In this document: piece by piece, positions 3,001-29,558 of the stretch
How positions within the stretch are numbered: position 1 is the stretch's first letter
Layout of the letters: each line of letters starts with the position of its first letter
Assembly (NCBI GenBank): GCA_052327205.1
Contig: CM126205.1
Coordinates: forward strand, 212,040,001-212,104,000
Origin: Somniosus microcephalus
Taxonomy: Eukaryota
Length of the DNA stretch: 64,000 nt
Reading direction: 5' to 3'
Made by a program: the position numbers and the translations under genes
The notes under the pieces: model-generated
Told to the model about the DNA's origin: nothing
Seen by the model: the letters and a program-made list of their open reading frames with translations, nothing else
Database searches by the model: none

Positions 3001-6000
3001 CCAATCTCCATCCTCCCCTCAACCCCAAACTCCAACCTCCCTTCAACCTGGATCTCCAAACTCCCATCAACCCCAATCTCCAACCTCCCCTCAACCCCAA
3101 TCTCCAGCCTCCCGTCAACCCTGATCTCCAGCCTCCCTTCAACCCCAGTTTGCAACTTCCCCAACACCCCGATCTCCAACCTCCCCTCAACACCAATCTC
3201 CCGCCTCCTCCAGCCCCGAATTCCAACCACCCCTCAACACCAATCTCCAAACTCCCTTCAAACACGATCGCCAACCTCACCTCAACCTCGATCTCCAGCC
3301 TCCCATCTACACCAATCTCCAAGCTCCGCTCAAACACAATCTCCAACCTCCCCTCAACCCCGTTCTCCAGCCTCCCCTCACCCCCGATCTCCAGCCTCCC
3401 CTCAACCCCAATTTCCAACCTCCCTTCAACACCAATCTCCAACCTCCCTTCAACCCCAATCTCCAGCCTCCCTTCAACCCCAACCTCCATTCAACCACAA
3501 TCTCCAGCCTGCCTTCAACTCCGATCTCCAGACTCCCTTCAACCCCGATCTCCAGCTTCCCCTGAACCCCGAACTCCAACCTCCCTTCAACCCCAATCTC
3601 CATCCACCCTTCAACCCCGATCTCCAACCTCCCCTCAACCCCAAACTCCAACCTCCCTTCAACCCCAATCTCCAACCTCCCTTCAAACCCGATTTCCAAT
3701 CTCCCCCAACTCCCATCTCCAGCCTCCCTTCAACCCCGATCTCCAACCACCCCTAAACCCCGATCTCCAGCATCCCCTCAACCGTGATGTCCAGACTCCC
3801 CTCAACTCAATCTTCAACCTCCACTCAACTCCAATCTCATACCAGCATTAAACCCGATCTCCAACCTCCCCTCAACCCCGATCACCAGCCTCCCTTCAAA
3901 CCCACTCTCCAACCTGCACTCAACTCCAATCTCCAACCTCCCATCAACCCCCACTGCCAGCCTCTCTTGAACCCCGATCTCAAACCAACCTTCAAGCCTG
4001 ATCTACAGCCTCCCCTCCACCCCAATCTCCAACCGCCCCTCAACCTCAATCTCCAGCCTCCCATCTACCCCGATCTCAAACCTCCCTTCAACCCGAATCT
4101 CCAGCCTCCCCTCAACACTGATCACCAACCTCCCCTCAACCCCGATCTCCAACCTCCCCTTAACCACAATCTCCACCCTCCCTACAACCCCAATCTCCAG
4201 CCTCTCTTGAACCCCGATCTCAGCCTCCCTTCAAGCCAGATCTCCAATCTCCCCTCAAGCCCAATCTCCAGCCTCTTTTGAACCCTGATCTCAAGCCTCC
4301 CTTCAAGCCAGATCTCCAGCCTCCCCTCAATCCCAATCTCCAACCTCCCCTCAACAGCAATTCTCAGCCACCCCTCAACTCTGTTCTCCAACCTCCCTTC
4401 AAACGCGATCTCCAACCTCGCTTCAAACGCGATCTCCAACCTCACCTCAACCCCGACCTCCAGCCTCCAATCAACCCCGATCACCAACCACCCCTCAACC
4501 CCGATCTCCAGCCTCACCTCAACCCAATCTCCAACCTCCCATCAACCCCAATCTCCAACCTCCACTCAACCTTGAACTCCAGAATCCCTTCAACACCGAT
4601 CTCCAACGTCCCCTCAACCACAATCTCCAAACTCTGCTCAACCGCAATCTGCAACCTCTCCTCAACCCTGATTTCCAACCTCCCTTCAACCCCAATCTCC
4701 AGCCTCCCCTCAACCCTGATCTCCAACCTACCCTCAAACCCGATCTCCAACCTCCCCTCAACCCCAATCTCCAGCCTCCCCTCAACCCCGACCTCCAACC
4801 TCCCATCAACCCCAATCTCCAACCTCCCCTTAACTCCAATCTCCACCCTCCCTTCAACCCCAATCTCCAGCCTCTCTTGAACCCTGATCTCAAGCCTCCC
4901 TTCAAGCCAGATCTCCAGCCTCCCCTCATGCCCAATCTCCAACCTGCTTCAACCCCAATCTCCAACCACCCTTCAAAGCCAATCTCCAGCCTCCCTTCAA
5001 CCCCAATCTCCAACCTCCCTTCAACCCCAACCTCCAGCCTCTCTTGAACCCTGAACTCCAGCCTCCCTTCAAGCCAGATCTCCAGCCTCCCCTCAACCCC
5101 AATCTCCAACCTTCCCTCAACAGCAGTCCCCAGCCTCCCCTCAATACTGTTCTCCAACCTCCCTTCAAACCCGATCTCCAGGTTCCTCCAGCCCCCATCT
5201 CCAAACTCCCCTCAATCCCGATCTCCAACTTCCCTTCAAACGCGATCACCAACCTCCCTTCAAATGCGATCTCCAACCTCCCCTCAACCCCGACCTCCAG
5301 CCTCCAATCAACCCCGATCACCAACCTCCCCTCAACCCCGATCTCCAACCTCCCCGCAATACCGATCTCCAGCCTTCCCTCAACCCCGATCTCCAATCTC
5401 CACCTAAACCCAATCTCCAGCCACCTCTCAAACCCGATCTCCAGCCTCATGTCAACCCCAATCTCCAACCTCACATCAACCCTGATCTCCAAACTCCACT
5501 CAACCTTGAACTCCAGACTCCCTTCAACACCGATCTCCAACGTCCCCTCAACCACAATCTCCAACCTCCCCTCAACCGCAATCTGCAACCTCTCCTCAAC
5601 CTTGATTTCCAACCTCCCTTCAACCCCGATCTCCAGCCTCCCCTCAAGCCCGATCTCCAACCTACCCTCAACCCTGATCTCCAACCTCCTCTCAACCCCG
5701 ATCTCCAGCGTCCCTTCAACCTCGATCTCCAGCCTCCCCTCAACCCCAATCTCTTACTTCCCCTCAACCCCGACCTCCAACCTCCCATCAACCCCAATCT
5801 CCAGCCTCCCCTCAACCCCAATCTCCAACCTACCCTCAACCCCGATCTCCAACCTCCTCTCAACCGCAATCTGCAACCTCTCCTCCACCCTGATTTCCAA
5901 CCTCCCTTCAACCCCGATCTCCAGCCTCCCCTCAACCCTGATCTCCAAACTACCCTCAACCCCGATCTACAACCTCCTCTCAACCGTGATCTCCAGCCTC

Positions 6001-9000
6001 CCTTCAACCCCGATTTCCAACCTCCCCTCAACCCCAATCTCCAGCCTCCCCTCAACCCCGACCTCCGACCTCCCATCAACCCCGATCTCCAACCTCCACT
6101 TAACTCCAATCTCCACCCTCCCTTCAACCACAATCTCCAGCCTCTCTTGAACCCCAATCTCAAGCCTCCCTTCAAGCCAGATCTCCAGCCTCCCCTCAAC
6201 CCCAATCTCCAACCTCCCTTCAACCCCAATCTCCAGCCTCCCTTCTACCCCAATCTCCAACCTCCCTTCAACCACAACCTCCAGCTTCTCTTGAACCCTG
6301 AACTCCAGCCTCCCTTCAAGCCAGATCTCCAGCCTCCCCTCAAACCCAATCTCCAACCTCCCCTCAACAGCAGTCCCCAGCCTCCCCTCAACTCTGTTCT
6401 CCAACCTCCCCTCAAACCCGATCTCCAGGTTCCTCCAGCCCCCATCTCCAAACACCCCTCAATCCCGATCTCCAACCTTCCTTCAAAGGCGATCTCCAAC
6501 CTCCCCTCAACCCCGACCTCCAGCCTCCAATCAATCCCAATCACCAATCTCCCCTCACCCCGATCTCCAACCTCCCGGCAACACCGATCTCCAGCCTTCC
6601 CTCAACCCCGATCTCCAAACTCCACCTAAACCCAATCTCCAGCCTTCCCTCAACACCGATCACCAAACTTCACCTAAACCCAATCTCCAGCCTCCTCTCA
6701 AACCCGGTCTCCAGCCTCATGTCAACCCCAATCTCCAACCTCCCATCAACCCTGATCTCCAAACTCCACTCAACCTTGAACTCCAGACTCCCTTCAACAC
6801 CGATCACCAACGTCCCCTCAACCACAATCTCCAACCTCCCCTCAACCGCAGTCTGCAACCTCTCCTCAACCTTGATTTCCAACCTCCCTTCAACCCCGAT
6901 CTCCAGCCTCCCCTCAACCCCGATCTCCAACCTACCCTCAACCCCGATCTCCAACCTCCTCTCAACCCCGATATCCAGCGTCCCTTCAAACTCGATCTCC
7001 AGCCTCCCCTCAACCCCAATCTCCAGCCTACCCTCAACCCCGATCTCCAACCTCCTCTCAACCCCAATCTCCAACCTCCCTTCAAACCTGATCTCCAGCC
7101 TCCCTTCAACCCCGATCTCCAACCAACCCTCAACCCCAATCTCTTACTTCCCCTCAACCCCGATCTCCAACCTGCCCTCAACCCCGATCACCAGCCTCCC
7201 CTCAACCCCAATCACCAGCCTCCCCTCAACCCCGATATCCAGCCTCCCCTCAACCCCGATCTCCAACCTCCTCCAGCCGTAATCTCCAGCCCCCCTTCAA
7301 CCCCAATCTCCAACCTGCCCTCAACCTCAATCTCCAACCTCCCCTCAGCCTCAATCTCCAGCCTCCCCTCAACCCCAATCTCCAACATCCCCTCAACCCC
7401 GATCTCCAACCTCCCCTCAACCGCAATCTCCAACCTCCCCTCAACCCCAATCTCCAAAGTCCCCTCAAACCCAATCTCCAGCCTCCGCTCAACCCCAATC
7501 TCCAAACTCCCCTCAGCCGCGATCTCCAAACTCCCTTCAAACTCAATCACCAACCTCCCCTCAACCTCGATCGCCAGCCTCCCCTTAACCCGAATCTCCA
7601 ACCTCCCGTCAACCCTGATCTCCAGCCTCACCTGAACACCAATCTCCAACCTCCCCTCAACCCCGATCTCCAAACTCCCTTCAAACTCAATTGCCAACCT
7701 CCCCTCAACCTCGATCGCCAGCCTACCCATAACACCAATTTCCAGCCTCCCGTCAACCCTGATCTCCAGCCTCCCCTCAACCCCAATCTCCAGCCTCTCT
7801 TCAAGCCCGATCTCAAGCCTCCCTTCAACCCCGATCGCCATCCTCCCCTCAACCCCAAACTCCAACCTCCCTTCAACCCCGATCTCCAGCCTCCCCTCAA
7901 CCCCGACCTCCAAACGCCCCTCAACCCTGATCTCCAGCCTCCCTTCAACCGCGATATCCAGCCACCCTTCAACCCGAATCTCCATACTCCCACCAACTCC
8001 AATCTCCAACCTCCCCTCAACCCCAATCTCCAGCCTCCCGTCAACCCTGATCTCCAGCCTCCCTTCAACACCAGTTTCCAACTTCCCCAACACCCCGATC
8101 TCCAACCTCCCCTCAACACCGGTCTCCCGCCTCCTCCAGCCCCGAATTCCAACCTCCCCTCAACACCAATCTCCAAACTCCCTTCAAATGTGATCGCCAA
8201 CCTCACCTCAACCTTGATCTCCAGCCTCCCATCTACCCCGATCTCCAAGCTCCGCTCAAGCCCAATCTCCAACCTCCCCTCAAGCCCGATCTCCAGCCTC
8301 CCCTCAACCCAAATTTTCAACCTCCCTTCAACACCTATCTCCGAACTCCCTTCAACCCCAATCTCCAGCCTCCCTTCAACCCCGATCTGCAGCCTCCCCT
8401 CAACTCCAAATTCCAACCGCCCTTCAACTCCAATCTCCAACCTCCCTTCAACCACAATCTCCAGCCTTCCTTCAACCCCGATCTCAAGAATCCCTTCAAC
8501 CCCAATCTCCAGCTTCCCCTCAACCCCGACCTCCAACCTCCCATCAACCCTGATCTCCATCCTTCCTTCAACCCCAATCTCCAAACTCCCCTCCAACCCA
8601 ATCTCCAACCTCCTCTCAACCCCAATCTCCAGCCTGCCTTTAACCCCAATCTCCAGCCAGCCCTCAACCCCAATCTCCAGCCTCCCCTCAACCCCAATCC
8701 CCAGCCTCTCTTCAAACCCGATCTCCAGCCTCCCCTCAACAACAATCTCCAAACTCCCTTCAACCCCACTCTCCAGCCTCCCTTCAACACCAATCTCCAA
8801 ACACCCCTCAACCCTGATCTCCAACTTCCCCTCAACCCTGATCTCCAACCTCCCCTCAACCCTGATCTGCAACTTCCCCTCAATCCCGATCTCCAGCCTC
8901 CCCTCAACCCTGACCTCCAACCTCCCCTCAATCTAGATTTCCAGCTTGCCTTCAACCTGGATCTCCAAACTCCCATCAACCCCAATCTCCATCCACCCTT

Positions 9001-10893
9001 CAACCCCGATCTCCAACCTCCCCTCAACCCCGAACCCCAACCTCCCTTCACCCCCAATCTCCAACCTCCCTTCAACTACAATCTCCAGCCTTCCTTCAAA
9101 CCTGATCTCCAGACTCCCTTCAACCCCGATCTCCAGCCTCCCTTCAACCCCGACCTCCAACCTCCCCTCAACCCTGATCTCCAGCCTCTTTTCAAACTCG
9201 ATCTACAGCCTCCCTTCAACCCGGATCTCCAAAATCCCATCAACACCAATCTCCATCCTCCCTTCAACCCCAATCTCCAACCAGCCCTCCAACCCGATCT
9301 CCAACCTCCTCTCAACACCAATCTCCAGCCTGCCTTCAACTCCAATGTCCAGACTGCCCTCAACCCCAATCTCCAACCTCCACTCAACCCCAATCTCCAG
9401 AATGCCCTCAAACCCAATCTCCAACCTCCCCTCAACCCCAATCCCCAGCCTCTCCTCAACACAAAATTCCAAACTCCCCTCAAACCCGATCTCCAGCCTC
9501 CCATCTACCCCGATCTCCAACTTCCCCTCAACCCCAATCTCCAGCCTCCCCTCAACCCTGAAATCCAACCTCCCCTCAACCCCGATCTCCAACCTCCCTT
9601 TACCCCCAATCTCCAGCCTCCCTTCAACCCCAATCTCCAGCCTCCCTTCATCCCCGATCTCCAACCACCCCTCAACCCTGATCTCCAACTTCCCCTCAAC
9701 CCCGATCTCCAACCTCCCCTCAACCCCGATCTCCAACCTCCCCTCAACCCCAATCTCCAACCTCCCCTCAACCCTGATCTGCAACTTCCCCTCAAGCCAG
9801 ATCTCCAGCCTCCCCTCAACCCCAATCCCCAGCCTCTCCTCAACCCCGATCTCCAAGCTCCCTTGAAATGCGATCTGCAACCTCCACTGAACCCCGATCT
9901 CCAGCCTCCCGTCTACCTCAATCTCCAGCCACCCTTCAACCCCGATCTCCAGCCTCCCTTCAACCCCAATCTCCAACCTCCCTTCAACATCAATCTCCAA
10001 CCACCCCTCCAACCCGATCTCCAACCTCCTCTCAACACCGATCTCCAGCCTGCCTACAACCCCAATCTCCAGATTGCCCTCAACTGCAATCTCCAACCTC
10101 GCCTCAACCCCAATCCCCAGCCTCTCCTCATCCCGAAATTCCAACATCGCCTGAACCCCGATCTGCAGCCTCCCCTTAACCCTGATCTCCAGCCTCCCCT
10201 CAACACCAATCTCCAACCTCTCTTCAACCCCAATCTCCAGCCTCCCTTCAACCCCGATCTCCAACCACCCCTCAACCCTGATCTCCAACTTCCCCTCAAC
10301 CCCGATCTCCAACCTCCCCACAACACTGATCTGCAACTTCCCCTCAAGCCAGATCTCCAGCCTCCCCTCAACCCCAATCACCAACCTCCCCTCAACCCCA
10401 ATCCCTAGCCTCTCCTCAACCCCAATCTCCAACCTCCCTTGAAATGCGATCTCCAACCTCCCCTGAACCCCAATCTCCAGCCTCCCGTCTACCCCGATCT
10501 CTAGCCGCCCTTCAACCCCGATCTCCAGCCTCCCTTCAACCCCAATCTCCAACCTCCATTCAACCACAACCTCCAGCCTCTCTTGAACCCCAATCTCAAG
10601 CCTCCCTTCAAGCCAAGTCTCCCTCTTCCCCTCAACCCCAATCTCCAACCACCCCTCAACCCCAATCCCCAGCCTCTCCTCAACCCCGATCTCCAACCTC
10701 CCTTGAAATGCGATCTCCAACCTCCCCTCAACCCCGATCTCCAGCCTCCCGTCTACCCCGATCTCCAGCCGCCCTTCAAACCCGATCTCCAGCCTCCCCT
10801 CAACTCCGATCTCCAACCTCCCCTCAACCTCGATCTCCAACCTACCTTCAAACCCGCTCTCCAACCTCCCCTCAACCCGATCTCCAACCTCCC
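1..10893. repeat. Giant 24-bp C-rich minisatellite, consensus ~AACCCCRATCTCCARCCTCCCYTC; begins before the window
   Basis: Continuous tandem units. ORF translations repeat every 8 aa (LEIGVEGR, PSTPISNL, QPPLNPDL), i.e. a 24-nt period. G is scarce on the + strand. Confidence 0.97.
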
Positions 10894-10939
10894 CCCAGTG
10901 CTCCTGCTCCTCGCCTGCCCACAGCCCTCCCGATCACCG

Positions 10940-11190
10940 ATGGGCTGAGAGAGGCTGGTGTTCAGGAGGGCTGGGGGGGAGGCTGTGATCAGGAGGGCTG
11001 TGGGGAGGCTGGTGATCGGGATGGCTGAGGGGAGGCTGCGATCTTGAGGGTTGGTGGGAAGCTGGTAATCAGGATGGCTGGGGGGAGGCTGCGATTGGGA
11101 GGGCTGGGGGGAGGCTGATGATCGGGAGGGCTGGGGGGGGCATCGATCGGGAGGGTTGGGGGGAGGCTGGTAATCAGGATGGCTGGTTGG
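10940..11190 (-). repeat. Short G-rich tandem array (~26-27 bp unit GATCGGGAGGGCTGGGGGGAGGCTGGT), an inverted relative of the main minisatellite
   Basis: The reverse complement of the unit (ACCAGCCTCCCCCCAGCCCTCCCGATC) shares CCAGCCTCCCC and CCCGATC with the 24-mer. About 9 units. Confidence 0.75.
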
Positions 11191-11689
11191 AGGTCATAAT
11201 CCTTGATACTTCCTTGAGGGGCCTGGGGGTGAGGGGGGGGGGCACTCCTGCTCCTCGTGGTCCACAGGGAGTGCTAAAAGAGCTGGCAGCTCCCACCTAG
11301 GATAAACTGCCGGGAGACCCACATGTTAGGCCTCCCTGTCACTTACAGTTAAAGTTAAGTCGCGGCGCCAATGTTGCGACTATTGTATGTTAATTAGGGC
11401 CCTGCCTGCCTTTTGGGGAAGCCTTGTCCATGGCCTGATTTCTGCGCTTTAAAATTTAAAGGGGAGGGAATGGGGTAGGTTTGGAGTCGGGTTGCCCAAT
11501 TCTGATATTTTAATGCCCCTCCCCCCTCACCCCGACCATGTCCTGCCCATCAGGGAGAGATTAAAATTGAGGCTATTGTTTCCGAAGAGATTAGCTTTGA
11601 ATTTACCGCCCTTCAAGCGCGGGCCATGTCCTCTGGTTCTATTGTTCTGACAAGGTGAAATAGCTTGTCATGACTTTCTATAACTGACT

Positions 11690-15517: not shown

Positions 15518-18153
15518 ACCTGACAGCATTCTCATCAATTAACTTCTTCTTTTAGGAATATATGGGATATCCATATTTTTGTCCCTTTGAGCATGGTATT
15601 GATTTTAGTTAAATTCTTATTCCATTTTATCATGGGTTGAGAGGTACATCTTGTTTCAGTCCACTTTACCTCCATTTTTCTTGGATCAGTGTTGTTTCCC
15701 TTGTTTGTCAACGCATCTTATTCCTTGAGTTGTCACTTGCGTTATGCATGACATCCTGTGAATTTGGATATCGTCATCCTCCTTCTCTACTGTTCCACTT
15801 ACACTTTTCTTTTTCTTGATATGTGGGCAACCTCTAACCCATCTGCACATTTTAAAATTATTTTTTCACCATAGAACTAACTGGGTGGATTGATCTGAGT
15901 AAGTCCACCACTGTCACAATGGTCTGAGTTCACCATCCCTGCAGGGTAAACTCATTTGCGTGCTCCCTTGCTAACTCTTCTTGCCTGCACTGTAAAATGG
16001 CTTGCTATAAAATGTGCAAAACTGAATAATCCAGTTTCTAAAGTAGACTGAGACTTTTAATTGTGAAAATCCATTTAAAATGTGTGGGTGGGACCCACTG
16101 GCGTGAAAGCAAGTGGATATATGGACAGTAGCGATTATAATTAAAGTTGCGTTAAACTGCAGTCTGGCCCTGTCTAACCTTCAAATAAACCTTTTTCGAG
16201 TTGCATTTGAGGAATGAATTAAAATGGAACATCAAGCTCTCAAAGGAAATATTTAGCAAGGTAGAGTGAAAAAACCAAGGATTGTACTATCAAAACTAAA
16301 ATGAAAAACTTAGGTACAAGTTTTGGTTTCTAGTGGACCCATCTGCCCTAGTTGAAGGACAGCTTTTGCCTGGCAAAGATGAATCGCCCTTTGAGATTAG
16401 AAAGCACTGATAGTGTACATGTATTTTTGAAATCACAACTCAATTGGACCTGGAACTCTAAACCAGCCAATTCCATAGCCAGATTTTCACTCACCAGCTG
16501 CCAGGATGAGTAGGTACAGATATACAGTAGCTACCGATTTAGGAGGCAAGGATAAAGACCCTTTTTCCTCAATAGTATTATTTGTAATGTCACAACTATC
16601 TTACATCACATGTTGGTACTAGTGACAACGTCTTTGGTATTGTCACTGTATAAAGGCAAGTATAAAGCTTAGTGTATAAATATTTATATAAATTTATTGT
16701 GTGCTGTACAAATGTAGAGCTAAGGATGTGCATGGTCTAAAATGGCTGCTCAGCATGCCTAACTTCCAGAGGATGGCTTTTGTCTTCAACTTCCATACAA
16801 TTTTCTGTCTTTTTTTAAGCCAGAAAGACATCATTTGAGAGGAGTGAACACCTACTTATAGATCATTCAACCTGGAAATGGGACCATCAGAGGAAACATT
16901 AACCCATTAACTGCATTTCAGGCAGTTCAAAATCTAATGAACCATTTCAGCCAGCTATCTCTATGACTGAGGGAGAGAGGAAAACTGGGGCACAAAAGCA
17001 TAGGAACCAGGTGGTCCTGGGTGAAGTAGAACTGAAAGCAGGTATTACAGATTGCTGCTGAAGAGACTGGCTGCATTCTCTGTTGTCAGGAGCAGAGCAT
17101 AGTTTTTTAAAGATCAGGCCATTTACTGCAGTCATTGTACATAAGCTTGTGCTGTTTGTATGGTGTTTAATTTCTGTAAATAAATCTACATAATTAATGT
17201 GGAATCAGAGCCCAGCTCAAATGTGGTGTGTTGACACTGCTATCTTCCAGAACGGTTTAGAGAGGAATAAAGTGCAGTAAGTGTTAGCAATCTATGATTG
17301 TGTGAGTCTTAAATGGTGTGAGGTCTCTGCAGCAGCAGTAAACTGTAAGCTAACACTTCTGTTTCATACAGGATCTGAGGTCTACTTACAGGAAGTACAT
17401 TGCAAGAAGGAATTGCTCTTTTCAATAACCTGAAATTACATCAAACTAATAGCAGCAGGTTTTGAGAGATGTCTGTGCAGTCAACTATGCTTTTACATAC
17501 CATTTTCAGTCTGTAATGGCTTTGAGTAGTGTATACTTCGTGGTGTATATGTGTATTTGAGGTTACTTTTTGACCAAGATCCACTGACAGTCATTGAACA
17601 GTAGCTATATACTCTGATTCCTACTTCTTCTCAAACTCTCTTCTACTCCATTTTCTAATTTTTTTTCTGCTTGTTTATGTTACATGTGCTCTGTACAGAT
17701 TAGTAAAGATTGCTTATCATCATTACAGTTGTAGTCCTTATCTCACCTGGACCTCATATGGATCTTGGATCTGTGCCTCTGTCAGAATGTCCAGCAGTTA
17801 AAATGCTTGACCCATCTCATGTGCTCATAATTGCTTCTTCTAATTGCTAAGTAGAGCATCCGGAGCTCAATTGTCCTTCTAATTACAGCCTGTTTTCAGG
17901 CAGTTTTGGGATGCTAAAAAGAGTAAAATGGAGTGGTAAGATACACTGCCTCAAATCTGCCCCAAAAATTGCACCATACTTCTCCTTAAAAAAAGGAATT
18001 CCTCTTTAACACCCGCTTGGAGCCTACTTTGACACATTTAAATGGGATTGGTTGGGTGTGGTTAATATTTCCACTTCATTTCTCTAACTTCTGCTCCAAA
18101 TCTGACGCAAGTTGAAGCCACCACTATATGAGTGGTAACCCTGAGGTGGATAC

Positions 18154-18661
18154 TGTAATGTATATACGTTTAAGTGGGGAACTATCTTTTACAGCTCATG
18201 TATACTGCAGTACCGGCAGTGACCACACCTTTATATAGCCCTGTGTAAGTAATCTGTACAGATCAGTTCGGGCAGCACGGTGGCATAGTGGTTAGCACTG
18301 TTGCCTCACAGAGCCAGAGACCCAGGTTCGAATCCGGCCTCGGGTGATGGTCTGTGTGGAGTTTGCACATTCTCCCCGTGTTTGCGTGGGTTTTCTCCGG
18401 GGGCTCCGGTTTCCTCCCACAGTCCAAAGATGTGCGGGTTAGGTTGATTGGCTATGATAAATTGACCGGTATGGGGATAGGGTGGGCTATGTGTTACAGG
18501 GATCGGGTAGGATATGTGTCGGTGCAGGCTCGATGGGCCAAAATGGCCTCTATCTGCACTGTGGGGTTTCTGTGATTTCTGTGAACTGTGAGCCACGTTG
18601 AGTAAACACCTGTTGTACCGTTTCTGCTGCAATCTGTATCTTATTATACACGGACATAACA
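18154..18661 (+). repeat. 5' LTR (194 bp net: 18154-18269 + 18584-18661), split by an HE1 SINE
   Basis: Starts TGTAATGTATATAC and ends GGACATAACA. Collinear with the three 3' LTR pieces. Confidence 0.93.
18270..18583 (+). mobile_element. HE1-type V-SINE inserted in the 5' LTR
   Basis: tRNA-like head (TGGCATAGTGG A-box, GGTTCGAATCC B-box), V-core GGAGTTTGCACATTCTCCCCGTG...CCGGTTTCCTCCCACAGTCCAAAGA, CR1-like tail. Absent at the matching 3' LTR position (GATCAGTTC|AACTGTGAG). Confidence 0.92.
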
Positions 18662-18959
18662 TTGGCAACGAGGCAGGTTCGAACCTACCTGCAACTCTGC
18701 ATCACCTCCCGGGGATTCGTTCCTGGAGATCAGTGGATTGGAGGTCAAGGCCAGAGACTCGGGCATCAACCACGGGCAACCACCCAGTCATCCAGCAGAG
18801 ACTCGACAATTGCGGGGGAGGCTGTCGAGAGCCAGACTTGGCTTTCCAGTCGAGGTGGTCCAGCGAAACGGGCTGGCAACAGGTAGTGCGCAGACCCTTC
18901 CCGGACAGCGGCGGGCTAGAGCCCGACCGAGCGGCAGAGCAAAGGGCCGAGCAGTGTCG

Positions 18960-19106
18960 ACGGGGGAGAGAGAGAGAGGGCAGAGCGCACAGGGCGCAGC
19001 CGGTGTTCAGGGGCTGAGCAGCGTCGAAGAGAGGGAGAGAGAGAGAGGGCAGAGTGCACAGGGCGCAGCCGGTGTTCAGGGGCCGAGCAGCGTCGGAGAG
19101 AGAGAC
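18960..19106 (+). repeat. ~70-bp tandem duplication in the Gypsy leader
   Basis: GAGAGAGAGGGCAGAGYGCACAGGGCGCAGCCGGTGTTCAGGGGCYGAGCAGCGTCG occurs twice. Confidence 0.85.
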
Positions 19107-19226
19107 GCGCAGAAACCCGCAAGGCGCCGTCATTGCCACAAGAACCGCCGGGAGCGGGGGAGGAAGGAAAGCGCGGGAGACGCCATTTTAAGCTATTGGG
19201 AGACGCCATTTTAAACCAGACCCAAA

Positions 19227-22200
19227 ATGCCGAAGAGTGGCAGTATCACCACATTTGACTATGAAGTCGAAGATTGGACTACATATGTCGAAGGAATAGA
19301 GGTGTACTGCAAGGCAAATGAGGTGTCAGATGACAAGAAAGCGCCGGTATTGTTAAATTTAATGGGTGCAAAGACGTATGGTTCATTACGAAATCTAGTA
19401 ACCCCAACGAAGCCAATGGAAAAGAGTTTTGAAGACATAGTAACGATACTAAAGGAACATTTAAACCCCACACTGCTGCTGATAGCAGAAAGATTCAAGT
19501 TTCACAAACGGAACCAGCATAAGGATGAAAGCAATGCTGATTATTTAATAGAACTGTGCAAACTATCGAAACACTGCCAGTTTGGAGCGGGACTGACAGA
19601 TACCTTAAGGGACAAGTTTGTGTGTGGGCTTCAAAGTGAAGGAACCCAGAAACGGCTTTTATCTGAAAAGGACCTTACGCTGGAAAAGGCTTTCAGCATT
19701 GCGGTATCATATGAAGCAGCAGCACAGGGTGCTGCAGAGATACAACAGAGACCGCAAGAATATGGCACAAACGAAATGTCATATGGAACAGAGAAGTGCT
19801 ATCACTGCGGCAGAACAACACACGACCACAATGATTGCTGGTTCAAAGACAAAGTGTGCAGACAGTGTGGAAAAGTAGGATACATAGCAGGAGTCTGCAG
19901 GTCGGGAAAGAAAACCAGCAATAAGAAACCTATCAAAGAAAAGTACAAGAAGGTACATAAGGTGACGGAGAATAGTTCAGACAAACAAAAGAGTGATAAT
20001 GACTCTGAAAGCAGGGAACTGAGTTGTCTGAAACTACATAATGTGATCACAATGGAGGATCACCGAACCATTTGGGTCACTCTCAAGATAGCAGGAGTCC
20101 AGGTAAAGATGGAATTGGACACAGGATCAGCCCTAACAGTCATAAACCGACGCGACTATGAGCGGCTACTCTCACACATACCCTTGAGAGACACAAAAAT
20201 TATTTTGAAGACGTACACGGGGCAAAATGTCTACCCCAAAGGAAAAATAAGGGTGACCATTATATATAACGGTAAGGAAACACCAAAACTAGAACTGTAT
20301 GTATTGCAAGATGGAGGACCACCATTACTGGGACGTGAATGGATCTGGAACATACAACTGGATTGGCATTCCATACAGGCACTGACTGTGGCTGACAAAA
20401 AGGATGATGACGTCACACCTGGGCGACTGTCAAAGATCCTAACTGACGCAAAAGAAGTGTTCCAGCAAGGACTCGGAACACTAAAAGGCATGACAGCGAC
20501 AATTAAAATTGAAGAAAACGCAAGCCCAAAATTTTGTAAGGCCAGACCGGTACCTTATGCGATCCGCCCAGCCGTCGAAGCAGAGCTGGAGAGTCTGGAA
20601 CGTTCAGGTGTACTGTCCAAGATAGACTGGAGCGAGTGGGCTACACCCATCGTCCCTGTGATGAAAAAGTCGTTGAGCAGCATGCCTGGGGAACCAAGGA
20701 AGGTTCGCATCTGTGGGGACTTTAAGGTAACAGTGAACCCGGTCCTTCACACTGTACAATATCCACTTCTGCGGATTGAAGATATTTTCGCCTCGCTACC
20801 TGGAGGGAAATGCTTCACTAAGATTGATCTGGCCCAGGCGTATCTGCAAATGGAGGTAGAAGAAGCATCAAAAAAATACCTCACAATCAACACCCATAAA
20901 GGTCTCTACCAATACAACCGGCTGGTATTCGGGGTAGCATCAGCTCCGGCTATTTGGCAGAGGGCAATGGAACAAGTCCTGCAAGGGATCCCAGGGACCC
21001 AGTGTTATTTGGACGACATCCTGGTCACGGGCGAAAATGACAGTGATCACCTTGCCAACCTGGAGCAGGTGCTCACTAGATTGCAGGAATATGGGCTCTG
21101 AGCTAACCGCCCCAAATGCGAGTTTTTTAGAAAACAGATCTCGTATTGTGGCCACGTTATCGATAAAGAGGGGTTACATAAGTCCCCAGAGAAGATTGAG
21201 GCAGTAGTCAAGGCTCCAGCACCGGAAAATGTGTCACAACTGAGGTTGTTCCTCGGGCTGGTAAACTACTACCATAAGTTCTTGCCAAATTTGTCTACAA
21301 TACTACACCCACTGAACACCCTACTGCAAACTGGGTGCCATGGAAGTGGAGTGACGAATGTAGACGAGCTTTCCAGAAGAGCAAAACACTAATCACATTG
21401 AAAGAGGTATTGGCCCATTACAACCCAGCATTACCAATTCGGTTGGCATGTGATGTGTCACCCTACGGCATTGGAGCAGTGCTGTCGCACAAATTCTCGG
21501 GCGGCTCAGAGAGGCCAATAGCCTTTGCGTCACGATCACTAACCTCAGCCGAGCGTAACTACGCCCAGATTGACAGGGAGGCCCTCAGCCTAGTGTGGGG
21601 AGTGAAAAAGTTCAATCACTATCTGCACGGGCAGAAATTCACCTTGCTGACTGATCACCAGCCTCTTGTCTACATTTTTAATCCGAAGAAGGGCGTTCCG
21701 GTGATGACTGCGCAATGACTACAAAGATGGTCACTTTTTCTAGGGGCGCACCACTATGAGATTGAATATAAGGGCACGAAACAGCATGGAAATGCTGATG
21801 GGCTATCACGCCTGCCACTGCCTACTGCGGAGGAAGCACCAGCAGTGGATCCTGTCGAAATATTCCATTCGACTATAGTTGAATACCTACCGGTAACTAA
21901 CGCTTGTATCGAAAAGGAAACCCGAAATGACCCGACACTGTCTCGGGTATATGATTTGACGGTGAAGGGATGGCCAGCACATGGCGACTCACTGTTGCCA
22001 GCATTCTCGACAAGGAGAGAACAGCTGTCAGTGTGCCGGGGGACCTTGATGTGTGGATCCCGAGTGGTAATTCCACCCAAGTTAAGGGATAGAGTGCTCA
22101 ATGAGCTTCATGAGGGTCATGTGGGAGATGTAAAAATGAAAAGCCTAGCCAGGGCTTATGTGTGGTGGCCGGGAATCGATAAACAAATCGAGGACCTGAC

Positions 22201-23179
22201 CAAGAGCTTCTCAGGATGCCAGAAAGTCCAAAATGCACCACCACAGGCCCCTCTACACCCATGGGAGTGGCCCTCATCTCCATGGCAACGGGTGCATATT
22301 GATTTTGCTGGTCCATTCATGGACTCAATGTTTTTAATAGCCGTGGATGCACACTCGAAATGTCCTGAGGTCATCAAAATGTCCTCCACCACCATGGAGA
22401 AAACTATTGCAGTCCTATGGACCATTTTTGCCAGGAATGGCTTGCCAGAACAGATTTGCTCCGACAACGGACCACAGTTTGTGTCCGAAGAGTTCCGGAG
22501 GTTCTTGAAAAAGAATGGGGTAAGGCATTACACATCCGCCCCGTAATATCCAGCCACAAATGGATTGGCTGAGAGGTTCGTACAAACCTTTAAGAAGGCA
22601 ATAAAGGCTATGTACAATGACAACATTCCGCTGCAGCACAAGGTGGACAATTTCCTGTTCGCCTACCGGAATGCGACACATGCAGTCACCAACCAGGCCC
22701 CAGCCATGATGTTCTTTAACCGAAGGTTAAGATCTCGCCTGGATTTGCTCAGACCAAACGTACAAAGAGATGTTGAGAGTAAGCAATTCCAGCACATCAA
22801 TGAGAAGCCAACAAGGAGCTTCAATGTAGGGCAACCAGTCTTGGCCCACGACTACCGAACAGAAAAATGGCAGCCAGGAATGATATGCACACGGCAGGGC
22901 CCACTAATGTACACAGTGGACGTTGGGGAGAGCATCGTGAGACGCCATGCTGACCAGATCCTAGAGTCACAGGAACAAGTCAACCCCATGCCTCGCCCAT
23001 ACGTATCTGGTGATGAACCCGATGTACAGGTCGCATCTACCCCAGAAACAGTAGCATCGGAAGCTGATGAACCAACTGACGACAGGGGGCCAGAATCGCC
23101 TCCGCACCAAGAGCAAGACACTCGGGAAAGGCGCTATCCAGAAAGGATCAGGAAGCCTCCCCAAAGACTGAATATATAA
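19227..23179 (+). pseudogene. Gypsy gag-pol polyprotein, disrupted
   Basis: Zn knuckle CYHCGRTTHDHNDC; protease LDTGS; RT ICGDFK/IDLAQAY/YLDD; RNase H LACD..PYGIGAVLS and TDHQPL; integrase HIDFAGP/SDNGPQF/AERFVQT. Stops at 21099, 21716 and 22544 and a frameshift near 21335. Confidence 0.95.
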
Positions 23180-23342
23180 ATAGACTATTTTCAGCTAATG
23201 TTGCATGTTAAAAGTGTTAATTGTAATTAGTTTGATATTTAATTGTTAAATGAGTGTTATGGTACTGTTAATCTAAAAGGGGAGGAATTGTAATGTATAT
23301 ACCTTTAAGTGGGGAACTGAATTTAGGGAGTTAGGAGCTAAA

Positions 23343-23606
23343 TTGAAAAGTAGGACCTCAAAGGTAGTAATCTCTGGATTGCTACCAGTGCCACGAGCTA
23401 ATAAGTTTAGAGAGAGTAAGATAGATAAGCTAAATACGTGGCTTGAGCAGTGGTGCAAGGGAGAGGGATTTAAATTCTTGAGGCATTGGAACCAGTTCTT
23501 GGGGAGGAGGGACCTGTACCAAGGGGACGGTCTACACCTGAACTGTGAGGGAGCCGATGTCCTCGGGGTAATATTTTCTAGGGCGGTTCGGGAGGATTTA
23601 AACTAA
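23343..23606 (+). pseudogene. CR1 ORF1 C-terminal SGNH esterase-like fragment
   Basis: KVVISGLLPVPR...LNTWLEQWC...DGLHLN motif typical of the CR1 ORF1 esterase domain. Confidence 0.85.
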
Positions 23607-23653
23607 TTTGGCAGGGGGATGGGAACCTAGGTAGTGGAAAAGAGGGAAGTCAT

Positions 23654-26563
23654 ATGAAGTCAGAAATAGATGGTAGAAAGGTGAGAAGCAATAAGCAAAG
23701 GAGAGAAACACAAAGGGCCAAACTAATTCATAATGAGAGTGTGAAAAAAGCAAGCCTGAAGGCTTTGTATCTTAATGCTAGAAGCATTAGGAACAAGGTG
23801 GATGAATTAGTTGTGGAAATAGAGGTAAACAAGTATGATTTGATTGGGATTACAGAAACGTGGCTGCAGGGTGGGCAAGGCTGGGAACTTAACATCCAGG
23901 GATATACAATATTTAGGAAGGATCGGCAAAAAGGTAGGGGAGGTGGGGTAGCATTGCTGGTAAAGGAGGGGATTAATGCAATGGAAAGGAAGGATATTAA
24001 CTCGGATGAAACGGAATCTGTATGGGTAGAAATGAGAAATAGCAAGGGGAGGAAAACGTTAGTGGGTGTGATATATAGGCCTCCAAATAGTAATATGGAG
24101 GTGAGGGAAGGCATAAAAAGGGAAATTAGAGAAGCGTGCGATAAGAGCACAGCTGTCATCATGGGTGACTTTAATTTACATATTGATTGGACTACCCAAA
24201 TTAGTTAAAATTCTGAGGAGGAGGAATTCCTGGAATGTTTTCGGGACGGTTATCTGGACCAATATGTCGAGGAGCCGACTCGAGATCAGGCCATTTTAGA
24301 CTGGGTATTGTGCAATGAGAAGGGACTTATCAGCAATCTTCTTGTACGAGGCCCCTTGGGTCAGAGCGATCATAATATGATCGAGCTCTCAGTCGAGATG
24401 GAGAGTGAGGAAATTGAATCAGAGACTAAGGTCCAGAACTTAAATAAAGGGAATTACGAGGGTCTGAGACGGGAATTGGGTAAGATTGATTGGGTGGTGT
24501 TTCTGGGGGGATTGACAGTAGAGAGACAATGGCAAGCATTCAAAGATAGAATGGAAGAATTCCAGAACATGTTTATACCGGTTTGGCATAAAAATAAACC
24601 TAAAAAGGTGACTCAACCGTGGATAACGAGGGAAATTAGGGACAGCATAAAATCAAAAAAAAGGGCATATCAACTGGCAAAAAAAAGCACCAGACCGGAA
24701 GATTGGGGGCAGTACAGGATACAGCAAAAGAGGACAAAGGGATTAATCAGGAAGGGGAAAATAGAATACGAAAGTAAACTTGCAGCAAACATAAAGACAG
24801 ACTGCAAAAGCTTTTATCGGTATATCAGGAGGAAAAGACTGGTAAAATCCCAAGTCGGTCCCTTGCAGTCCGATTCGGGAGAATATATAATGGAGAATAA
24901 GGAAATGGCAGACCAATTAAACTCATACTTTGGTTCTGTATTCACAAAGGAGGACACAAATAACCTCCCAGGAATATCGGCAAACATGGGGACTAATGAG
25001 AGGGAGGAGCTGACAGAAATTAGTATCTCTAGGGATATGGTGTTGGGTAAGTTGAGGGGACTGAAGGCCGACAAATCCCCGGGGCCTGATAAACTACATC
25101 CTAGGGTACTTAAGGAGGTGGCCCTGGAGATAGCAGATGCTCTAAGGATCATCTTCCGGAACTCCATTGACTCGGGAACAGTACCTGTGGATTGGAGGGT
25201 AGCTAATGTTACCCCAATATTTAAAAAGGTGGGTAGAGAGAAAGCAGGGAATTATAGACCAGTAAGCCTTACATCGGTTGTGGGCAAAATGCTAGAGTCT
25301 ATTATTAAGGATAAAATAGCGGAGCACTTGACAAATGGGGAAAGGATCGGACAGAGTCAACATGGATTTACAAAGGGTAAATCGTGTTTGACTAATCTGC
25401 TGGAATTTTTTGAGGAAGTAACTGGTAAAATAGATGGGGGAGAGCCAGTGGATGTGGTGTACCTTGACTTCCAGAAAGCCTTCGATAAGGTTCCACACAA
25501 AAGATTATCATGCAAAATTAAGGCTCATGGAATTGGGGGCAAAGTATTAACGTGGATAGAGAACTGGCTGGCGGATAGAAAACAGAGAGTTGGAATAAAC
25601 GGCTCGTTTTCGGAGTGGCAGGCAGTGACCAGCGGGGTGCCGCAAGGATCTGTCCTGGGACCCCAGCTGTTCACAATATATATAAATGATCTGGATCAGG
25701 GAATTGGATGCAATATTTCCAAATTCGCTGACGACACTAAACTAGGAGGAGGGGTGGGCTCTGATGAGGATGTCAGGAGGCTACAGTGCGATTTGGACAG
25801 GTTGGGGGAATGGGCGGATACGTGGCAGATGCACTATAATGTGGATAAATGCGAGGTTATCCACTTTGGGGGTAAAAACAGGAGGGTAGATTATTATCTA
25901 AATGGCAATAGATTGGGAGATGGGGAAGTGCAGAGGGACCTGGGTGTTCTTGTGCACCAGTCACTGAAGGAGAGCATGCAGGTGCAACAGGCGATTAAGA
26001 AGGCAAATAGTATGTTGGCCTTCATATCAAGGGGGTTCGAGTATAGGAATAGAGATACCTTACTACAGCTGTACAAGGTGCTGGTGAGACCGCATCTGGA
26101 GTATTGTGTACAGTTTTGGTCGCCCCATCTGCGGAAGGATGTTCTTGCCATGGAAAGAGTGCAACGGCGATTCACCAGGCTGATACCTGGAATGGCAGGA
26201 ATGACCTACGAAGAGAGATTAAATAGTTTGGGCTTGTACTCACTGGAGTTTAGAAGATTGAGAGGGGATCTCATCGAAACATATAAAATTATGGCAGGCC
26301 TGGACAGGCTGAATTCAGAGAGAATGTTTCCAATGGCCGGGGAGCACAGAACCAGGGGCCACAGTCTAAAAATAGCGGGCAAATCATTTAAAACAGAGAT
26401 GAGGAAGAATTTCTTCACTCAAAGAGTGGTGAGCCTGTGGAATTCCCTGCCACAGAGGGCTGTGAAGGCTAATTCAATAAATATTTTCAAGAGAGAATTG
26501 GATATATTTCTGAAGGCTAAGGGGATTAAGGGTTACGGAGAAAAGGCGGGGACGGGGTACTGA
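23654..26563 (+). pseudogene. CR1 ORF2 (APE endonuclease + reverse transcriptase) with a single in-frame TAA at 24206-24208
   Basis: Endonuclease motifs YLNARSI, GITETW, GVIYRPP, MGDFN, SDHN. RT motifs NYRPVSLTS, QHGF, YLDFQKAFD, GVPQGSVLGP, FADD. ORFs 23654-24208 and 24308-26563 are in the same frame. Confidence 0.93.
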
Positions 26564-26798
26564 ACTGGTAAGATCAGCCATGATCTCATTGAATGGCGGA
26601 GCAGGCTCGAAGGGCCGAATGGCCTACTCCTGTTCCTATCTCTATGTATCTATGAACTATCTTTTACAGCTCATGTATACTGCAGTACCGGCAGTGACCA
26701 CACCTGTATATAGCCCTGAGTAGTAATCTGTACAGATCAGTTCAACTGTGAGCCACGTTGAGTAAACACCTGTTGTACCTTTTCTGCTGCAGTCTGTA

Positions 26799-27492
26799 TC
26801 TATATATATAAAGGAATCGTTCTGTCTGTCTATCTGTCTGTCCTTCTGTCTGTCTGTCTGTCCTCGGGTGTGCGTCTGTCCGGCTATGCGCTCGAAAGTT
26901 ATACGGCGTACCTACGCGCGCATTACCTCCGAAGAAAGCTGACGCTGGTAAGCGTATTTACTTTTCGGTCGGACGAAAATTGTTCGCGCCTTATGCAAAA
27001 AACCTTCAAAATTAAACTCATTATCTGCTAGCATTGATTGACTGACGTCAAGGTTCGACCAATCCTGTGCCGTCACGATTGACCAATCCTACAGTACGGT
27101 CCCCTGATGGTTGGCCAATCGGTGTGTGTGTGTGTGTGGGCGGGACTAATCGTTTTCATCTCGGGGATCTGGCAGCCATTGTTTCAGTGCCATGACTTCA
27201 GCTTCCAGCTCAAACTACTTTGAAAGTTAGTATCTCTTTTAAAAATAACATAAGATTTACCAAAAACGTTTTATAAGTACTTTCACTTTCATCTTTCAAG
27301 GTATTAAGTGTGTGTGTGGGCGGGACTAATCGTTTTCATCTCAGGGATCTGCCAGCCATTGTTTCACAAAGGGACACAGACAGGGCCCCAAAGCCTGGCA
27401 CTCGATTTAAACCGCCCGGCCCAAAACAGCCCTGGCAAAGCCGGGCTCCCCAGCCCAAAACAGCCCTGGCAAAGCCGGGCTCCCCCAGCAAG
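26799..27492 (+). mobile_element. Non-autonomous Helitron (694 bp) inserted in the 3' LTR
   Basis: Inserted between A and T of LTR TCTGTA|TCTTATT with no TSD. Starts TC(TA)n. Ends with hairpin GCCCTGGC-AAA-GCCGGGC followed by CCAGCAAG (CTAG-like). (TCTG)n lies near the 5' end. Confidence 0.85.
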
Positions 27493-27684
27493 TCTTATTA
27501 TACACGGACGTAACAGATACTACATTAAGGAACCCATTTTGTTCGCTGAAACTGATGGTTTGTGTGACTGCCTGCATATTGAATTTAGCTTTTTGCTGCT
27601 CTAGAGGTTTCTATTAACACTTTTCTGGCATATTTAATCAGCACCATAGAAAGTACAGGTTACGACTGGAGACTTGTTTTCCCA

Positions 27685-29264: not shown

Positions 29265-29558
29265 TTTCACAGAATCTACAGTGCAGATAGAGGCCATTTT
29301 GGCCCATCGAGCCTGCACCGACACATATCCCCGTAACCCCAAGTATTTAATCCCCTAACACTAAGGGTCAATTTATCATAGCCAAATCAACCTAACCTGC
29401 ACATCTTTGGACTGTGGGAGGAAACTGGAGCACCCGGAGGAAACCCATGCAGACACAGGGAGAATGTGCAAACTCCACACAGACAGTCACCCGAGGCCGG
29501 ATTTGAACCCGGGTCCCTGGCGCTGTGAGGCAACAGTGCTAACCACTATGCCACCGTG
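29265..29558 (-). mobile_element. HE1-type V-SINE
   Basis: Reverse complement of the SINE at 18270: TCTTTGGACTGTGGGAGGAAAC...GGAGAATGTGCAAACTCCACACAGAC...TGCTAACCACTATGCCACCGTG. Confidence 0.92.

What the first reader, a model, noticed from the sequence alone, without database searches (positions are those of the whole stretch)
18154..27515. Nested TE stack: three unrelated elements all landed in the ~194-bp LTRs and none in the 4.6-kb interior
Seen at base-pair resolution, because each LTR supplies the empty site for the other. HE1 SINE 18270-18583 sits in the 5' LTR; CR1 23319-26653 and Helitron 26799-27492 sit in the 3' LTR. The LTRs make up ~390 bp of a ~5-kb native element. All three insertions postdate the Gypsy integration (LTRs differ by 6 substitutions + 1 indel, ~3%), which bounds the activity of SINE, LINE and rolling-circle families. 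Inference: these LTRs may be germline-accessible or sequence-preferred landing pads.
Basis: partly seen in the sequence, partly recalled or inferred. Interest (0 to 1): 0.7.

Follow-up and report, generated by a model that had tools for sequence, protein, structure and literature searches.

The report
One base creates a Helitron hotspot
A broken jumping gene carries three later insertions in its short end repeats; across its family the ends are hit about 2-3 times as often as the middle, one of the three spots has been hit again and again only in copies with an A instead of a G there, and the triple hit itself is likely chance on top of such sequence preferences.

Summary
The anatomy is exactly as described: a broken Ty3/Gypsy element (18154-27515, GATAC target duplication, LTRs differing by 6 substitutions and 1 indel) with a SINE in the 5' LTR and a CR1-type LINE and a Helitron-like element in the 3' LTR. 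The family test gives a mixed answer. In about 143 sister copies, interiors are hit often (56 insertions in 548 kb) and LTRs about 2.6-fold more densely (11 in 42 kb; 95% CI 1.2-5.0; 0.67-5.9 in the LTR-blind sample). An empty interior is ordinary (62%), and about 0.8 triple-LTR copies are expected among some 8,000. The SINE and LINE sites do not recur, and these two share a 3' tail, so they are not unrelated. The Helitron site is a true single-nucleotide hotspot: 8 independent Helitrons sit at TGTA^TCTTATTATAC in the minority LTR variant (about 430 copies), none was found against 8,942 empty copies of the majority variant TGTG^TCTT of similar age. A second LTR hotspot (G-run) takes other LTR elements (37 hits). 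This supports sequence-preferred sites rather than general LTR accessibility, which was not tested. Known kind of phenomenon, with a clean natural experiment.

The parts
18149..18153 (+). left target-site duplication GATAC of the LTR element
18154..18269 (+). 5' LTR, first part (starts TG; holds the G-run near 18174-18179 and the empty LINE site)
18270..18583 (+).
18584..18661 (+). 5' LTR, second part; holds the empty Helitron site TGTA^TCTT at 18638/18639; ends CA
18662..23288 (+). Gypsy interior, 4,627 bp: primer-binding-site-like start, 69-bp tandem repeat 18944-19102, gag-protease-RT then integrase in frames broken by stops and frame changes, polypurine tract; no insertion, no extra env-like frame seen
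23289..23318 (+). 3' LTR, first part
23319..26654 (+). CR1-type LINE, likely 5'-truncated; endonuclease (23582-24208) and RT (24209-26563) separated by a stop; short-repeat tail; (G)AACT duplication
26655..26798 (+). 3' LTR, middle part; holds the empty SINE site at 26743/26744
26799..27492 (+). non-autonomous Helitron-like element, 694 bp, TC start, subterminal hairpin, CAAG end, in A^T; family-wide hotspot
27493..27515 (+). 3' LTR, last part (TCTTATTATAC..., the downstream half of the Helitron target; ends CA)
27516..27520 (+). right target-site duplication GATAC

Best explanation
This is a broken Gypsy retrotransposon copy that was hit three times after it integrated, and the stack is likely a chance tail event on top of site-specific sequence preferences that make these AT-rich LTRs 2-3 times denser targets than the interior. 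Shown: the Helitron used a bond that independent Helitrons used in 7 other copies (plus one 5'-only case), all in the minority LTR variant with A^T at that bond, none in the far commoner G^T variant. Inferred: the A supplies the AT dinucleotide that Helitrons need, and the downstream TCTTATTATA, which resembles the element's own 5' end and holds the TATA-like word seen 3' of most insertion sites, makes it a strong target. Shown: the SINE and LINE sites do not recur. Inferred: both came by the same CR1-type machinery with little site preference, perhaps primed by short matches between tail and target.
For: Anatomy. Family counts: (11 LTR insertions in 41.8 kb, 56 interior in 547.5 kb; ratio 2.57). 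Expected triple-LTR, empty-interior copies about 0.8 per 8,000 at these rates, 0.06 at uniform rates (family size is my estimate). Helitron site: 8 of 22 hits of the 3'-junction pattern are Helitron-filled, all 8 with TGTA upstream, against about 425 empty A-type (509 x 106/127) and 8,942 empty G-type; Fisher p 2e-11, 4e-10 without the window's copy. A and G types have similar LTR-pair divergence (median 2.6% n=30, 2.1% n=21, p=0.53). The inserted Helitrons differ (20 of 21 pairs detected; 60-83% identical, one pair 95%) and lie in 5' or 3' LTRs at different loci. Motif T-N(2-7)-TATA/ATAA follows 32 of 39 non-tandem Helitron ends vs 2.9% of background AT sites; 4 such sites in two LTRs vs 11 in the interior. 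SINE/LINE sites: 3 hits, 2 are the window's own, the third is not an LTR.
Against: A position weight matrix from the 39 non-tandem sites does not place the LTR site among the top 25 of 622 AT sites of a sister copy, so why this site is so strong is not explained by the simple motif; the 5'-end mimicry is inference. The LTR excess rests on 11 hand-classified events; the LTR-blind sample alone has CI 0.67-5.9, and without the Helitron site the ratio is 2.1 (CI 0.92-4.3). Exposure figures are approximate. Three LTRs at one locus (L177-L179) read CTAG at the site in a G-type background and are unexplained. A and G variants differ at other nearby bases too, so the A is confounded with subfamily. 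Chromatin was not measured.
Confidence: 0.72

Rival explanations
1. The LTRs are open chromatin in the germline and attract all element classes.
For: LTR density is 2-3 times the interior and several classes are among the LTR hits: Helitron, TA-duplicating DNA transposon, TIR element, LTR elements, a short fragment.
Against: 5 of the 11 LTR hits fall on two bonds or runs with class-specific recurrence (2 Helitrons at one bond, 3 LTR elements at the G-run); one base goes with all-or-none use of the Helitron site; interior sites are also slightly AT-biased (46.7 vs 49.2% GC, p=0.03), so composition may explain the rest. No SINE or LINE recurrence.
Confidence: 0.13
2. Pure chance: density is equal in LTRs and interiors and this copy was picked out after the fact.
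For: The LTR-blind sample is compatible with a ratio of 1 (p=0.09). Multi-hit copies with the opposite layout exist (L211: three interior hits, intact 5' LTR). The SINE and LINE sites are unique.
Against: Cannot explain 8 Helitrons at one bond or 37 LTR-element ends at the G-run; pooled ratio 2.6, p=0.007.
Confidence: 0.1
3. The Helitron-bearing LTR arose once and was spread by copying of the composite (retrotransposition, duplication or conversion).
For: One pair of inserts is 95% identical (L162/L173); mixed A/G LTR pairs (4 of 55) show that LTR sequence is exchanged.
Against: Inserts differ in length (about 0.7 to 4.5 kb) and are mostly 60-83% identical; the partner LTR is empty in the window, L004 and L097; flanks differ.
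Confidence: 0.05

Closest known systems
Helitron (HLE1) target preference, Helraiser (PMC4778049, passages read; PMC11417382, passages read)
   Same: Insertion between A and T, no target duplication, TC start, hairpin and CTRR-type end; preference for AT-rich DNA, strongest 3' of the insertion.
   Different: Here the preference is seen as repeated use of one bond in a multicopy target, with a natural A/G contrast over about 9,400 LTRs and a TATA-like word 3-8 bases downstream; this copy ends CAAG.
Non-random nesting in plant LTR retrotransposons (PMC6911290, abstract and section 7 read)
   Same: Nesting is common in large genomes and favours particular regions and motifs of the host element.
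   Different: That study found LTRs the least-hit region and counted LTR-into-LTR nesting only; here LTRs are hit more densely than the interior, by several element classes.
Repeated insertion at preferred sites forming TE dimers (PMC5932611, abstract read; tandem and self-inserted Helitrons, PMC5148889, passages read)
   Same: Site preference makes independent insertions pile up at the same place; 28 of 67 Helitron ends here are followed by another Helitron start.
   Different: The preferred site here lies inside an unrelated element's LTR.
SINE/LINE pairs with a shared 3' tail, e.g. HE1 with HER1 in sharks and rays (PMC3747384, passages read)
   Same: The window's SINE and LINE share a 3' tail segment (28 of 33 columns).
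   Different: Identity with HE1 or HER1 was not tested against reference sequences; the LINE copy here need not be the SINE's exact partner.

Membership tests
Ty3/Gypsy LTR retrotransposon | Direct LTRs with TG...CA ends and a short target duplication | tested here: met
   194/193-bp LTRs, GATAC duplication
Ty3/Gypsy LTR retrotransposon | Protease, RT, then integrase after RT | tested here: met
   Asp_protease_2 and RVT_1 in 19215-21098, Integrase_H2C2 and rve in 21719-22543
Ty3/Gypsy LTR retrotransposon | RNase H between RT and integrase; lineage by RT tree | not tested
   the frame 21278-21715 was not scanned and no tree was built
CR1-clade LINE | APE endonuclease plus RT, short-repeat 3' tail instead of poly(A) | tested here: met
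   Exo_endo_phos, RVT_1; tail
CR1-clade LINE | Placement in the CR1 clade by RT phylogeny | not tested
HE1 / V-SINE | 3' tail shared with a CR1-type LINE | tested here: met
   28 of 33 columns
HE1 / V-SINE | tRNA-derived head | tested here: inconclusive
   no Rfam match at E<=1; a diverged head would not be expected to match
HE1 / V-SINE | Central V domain and identity to the HE1 reference | not testable with these tools
   no repeat library on hand
Helitron (HLE1), non-autonomous | 5' TC, insertion in A^T, no target duplication | tested here: met
Helitron (HLE1), non-autonomous | Subterminal hairpin | tested here: met
   -7.2 kcal/mol, z -2.07, closing 11 nt before the end (modest)
Helitron (HLE1), non-autonomous | 3' CTRR | tested here: inconclusive
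   this copy ends CAAG; 27 of 30 relatives with the same subterminal sequence end CTAG
Helitron (HLE1), non-autonomous | Autonomous RepHel partner with the same ends | not tested
   not searched

The most novel reading that the evidence does not exclude
These Helitrons choose targets that mimic their own 5' terminus (A^TCT-TATA), so one G-to-A change in a retrotransposon LTR turned a whole subfamily into a Helitron trap used at about 2% per copy; the same rule would explain head-to-tail Helitron stacks and repeated hits at fixed sites of other repeats, giving a readable target code beyond 'AT in AT-rich DNA'.
Probability: 0.35. Interest if true: 0.6.

Novelty: new member of a known kind. Interest (0 to 1): 0.38.

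Why it matters
Multicopy repeats act as thousands of replicate targets. Here they give an in-genome experiment on transposon target choice: same flanks, similar age, one base different at the cut site, 8 insertions against 0. This makes the extended target code of vertebrate Helitrons measurable, and warns that insertions at identical positions in repeat copies can be independent. It also shows an LTR excess opposite to the plant pattern. The locus itself is an ordinary dead nest.

Tried and rejected
A shared AACT target for SINE and LINE: both window junctions are followed by AACT, but only 2 of 40 distinct tails in the fetched loci are, and they are these two. Recurrence of the SINE or LINE site: none. 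A weight matrix as predictor of the Helitron site: failed. Age difference between A and G variants as the cause of the contrast: not seen. DNA search with an interior stretch found nothing because common words are skipped; patterns were used instead. Presence/absence across individuals: of four runs laid, only X23 covers the unique flanks, so polymorphism could not be judged. Rows dropped before the counts: L023 (duplicate of L022); LTR cases L005, L112, L236 (5' piece not found within 11-15 kb; with them and 3 unresolved interior breaks the ratio is 3.1), L197, L204, L212 (deletions), L082 (chimeric LTR); interior L102, L199, L221 (unresolved), L079, L085, L191, L231 (rearrangements of own sequence), L123 (30 bp). 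Earlier-finding look-ups returned nothing. Literature searches listed no paper whose title or abstract start describes a Helitron hotspot inside an LTR; subscription papers and supplements were not seen, so absence from print is not shown.
Full report
Observation. The region reads as described. The LTR element spans 18154-27515 between GATAC duplications; its LTR parts, compared piece by piece, differ by 6 substitutions and one 1-bp indel. The interior (18662-23288) encodes protease, RT and integrase in frames broken by stops and frame changes and aligns to sister copies without an insertion. The SINE (18270-18583) has no target duplication, the LINE (23319-26654; endonuclease and RT) duplicates (G)AACT, and the 694-bp Helitron-like element starts TC, has a hairpin near its end, ends CAAG and sits in A^T. 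Since each partner LTR is empty, all three postdate integration. The LTR pair divergence (3.1%) is a little above the median of its subtype (2.6%; 70% of 30 pairs are no more diverged). One public run has single-copy contigs across the right junction and into the left LTR; it may be the source sample.

Not three unrelated machines. The SINE tail and the LINE tail share 28 of 33 aligned columns. Shared tails mark SINEs that borrow a LINE's enzyme, and HE1 is listed with the LINE HER1 (PMC3747384, passages read).

Family size. The genome has 6.45 Gb. Exact interior patterns occur 4,268 and 2,665 times; with an exact-match share of about a third I estimate some 8,000 copies. Most LTRs read TGTG^TCTTATTATAC (8,942 hits); the window belongs to a minority reading TGTA^TCTT (509 hits of a 22-mer).

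Density test. Sample A: 91 stretches of 10 kb around LTR hits (the 40 best and the first 100 listed of 509), 84 elements after merging split stretches and dropping one duplicate; it is biased against LTR insertions. Sample B: 60 of the first 64 listed of 2,665 interior-anchored places (four already held in A were skipped, one more is the other half of an element in A), blind to LTR state, all on contig C1. Junctions were classified by eye. Result: 11 LTR insertions in about 41.8 kb and 56 interior insertions in 547.5 kb: ratio 2.57, CI 1.22-4.96, p=0.007; A alone 2.9 (0.98-7.1), B alone 2.2 (0.67-5.9); with unresolved cases 3.1; without the Helitron site 2.1 (0.92-4.3). At these rates an empty interior has probability 0.62, and three or more LTR hits with an empty interior 1e-4, about 0.8 copies in 8,000 (0.06 if density were uniform). 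Copies with two or three interior hits exist (L211, L197, L223, L072/73). So interiors are not spared, LTRs are moderately denser targets, and one such stack in the family is not surprising.

The Helitron site is a hotspot. A pattern joining the LTR to a Helitron start found 5 loci, all with Helitron starts. A pattern for the 3' junction, blind to subtype, found 22: 8 Helitron-filled, 10 a TCTGAG sequence variant, 3 a CTAG variant at one locus, 1 a short deletion. All 8 have TGTA upstream; a ninth (L034) shows only the 5' junction. The inserts range from about 0.7 to 4.5 kb and are mostly 60-83% identical. Against about 425 empty A-type and 8,942 empty G-type sites, Fisher p is 2e-11. The two types are of similar age (p=0.53). 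Two Helitron end patterns matched 3,832 and 1,699 times; by my arithmetic even ten times that sum would give about 0.004 expected hits at one random base in 430 copies.

Why this bond. Helitrons insert between A and T and prefer AT-rich DNA on the 3' side (PMC4778049, PMC11417382, passages read). Here 32 of 39 non-tandem ends are followed by T and a TATA/ATAA word 3-8 bases on, against 2.9% of background AT sites; the LTR site fits, and such sites are about four times denser in the LTRs (4 in two LTRs, 11 in the interior). Of 67 distinct ends, 28 are followed by another Helitron's start, and the LTR target TCTTAT.. resembles that start. I infer that the target mimics the 5' terminus. Against this: a weight matrix from the non-tandem sites does not rank the site in the top 25 of 622, tandem units can also arise from rolling-circle copying (PMC5148889, passages read), and the A is confounded with other subfamily differences.

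A second LTR hotspot. Three sampled LTRs had LTR-type elements at the G-run near position 21-26 (L093, L115, L191). A genome-wide pattern gave 37 hits; 12 of 12 examined look like ends of LTR elements of several kinds (full duplication seen in two). With about 8,400 such sites (8,942 x 48/51) that is some 40 times the interior average, by my arithmetic. The window's LINE lies a few bases further on and is a different class. Interiors have recurrent sites too (three LTR elements at about 2434-2438, three TIR elements at 1135-1147), though clustering overall is weak (14 close pairs vs 8.4 expected, p=0.05).

SINE and LINE sites. One degenerate pattern covering tail plus either site gave 3 hits, two of them the window's own and one unrelated. 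AACT follows only these 2 of 40 tails. Short matches between tail repeat and target (CTGTGA; CTATCT) are visible in the sequence and may have primed insertion; this was not tested statistically.

Comparison and verdict. Non-random nesting is known; in plants LTRs were the least-hit region (PMC6911290, section 7 read), and repeated use of preferred sites is known to build TE dimers (PMC5932611, abstract read). My searches listed no report of a Helitron hotspot inside an LTR, but coverage is partial and supplements were not read. The locus is an ordinary nest; the family-level A/G contrast is the part worth keeping. Accessibility remains untested.

Noticed in passing
window 1-10894 and 10951-11193: A 24-bp tandem array of about 455 copies (77% matches, strongly C-rich strand), followed by a short related 53/27-bp array in the opposite orientation.
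   Followed up: no
window 29267-29558 (-): A second copy of the same SINE, 86% identical over 301 bases.
   Followed up: no
L021, L024, L083; L117, L197, L281: TIR elements starting GGCCTAG/GGCCCAG recur at two interior sites of the Gypsy family (about 1135-1147 and 3618-3622), apparently with 3-bp duplications; a Harbinger-like label is recalled, not tested.
   Followed up: partly
L112, L125, L211; L087/L088, L237: Different LTR elements recur at interior sites about 2434-2438 and 1967-1971.
   Followed up: partly
listing; L127, L130, L142, L133, L147, L154: Among 100 listed Helitron ends the same downstream 13-mers recur (4, 3 and 4 times); two look like fixed sites in CR1-type LINEs, one lies about 3.4 kb from a Gypsy pol match in 4 cases. 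Independent hits or co-amplification not resolved.
   Followed up: no
L177-L179 (G000:C19, about 61.93-61.94 Mb): Three tandemly spaced LTRs read CTAG directly before the Helitron target in a G-type background; point changes or a Helitron remnant, unexplained.
   Followed up: no
L007 7422-8145; L005, L112: A 723-bp TIR element duplicating TA sits in the palindrome near the LTR start in L007; L005 and L112 lose the LTR start at the same TA, unresolved.
   Followed up: partly
samples A and B: 4 of 55 LTR pairs mix the A and G variants, and L082 has a chimeric LTR, pointing to exchange between subfamilies.
   Followed up: no
L022, L023: Two near-identical copies with the same nested insertion 110 kb apart on C1, likely a segmental duplication.
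   Followed up: no
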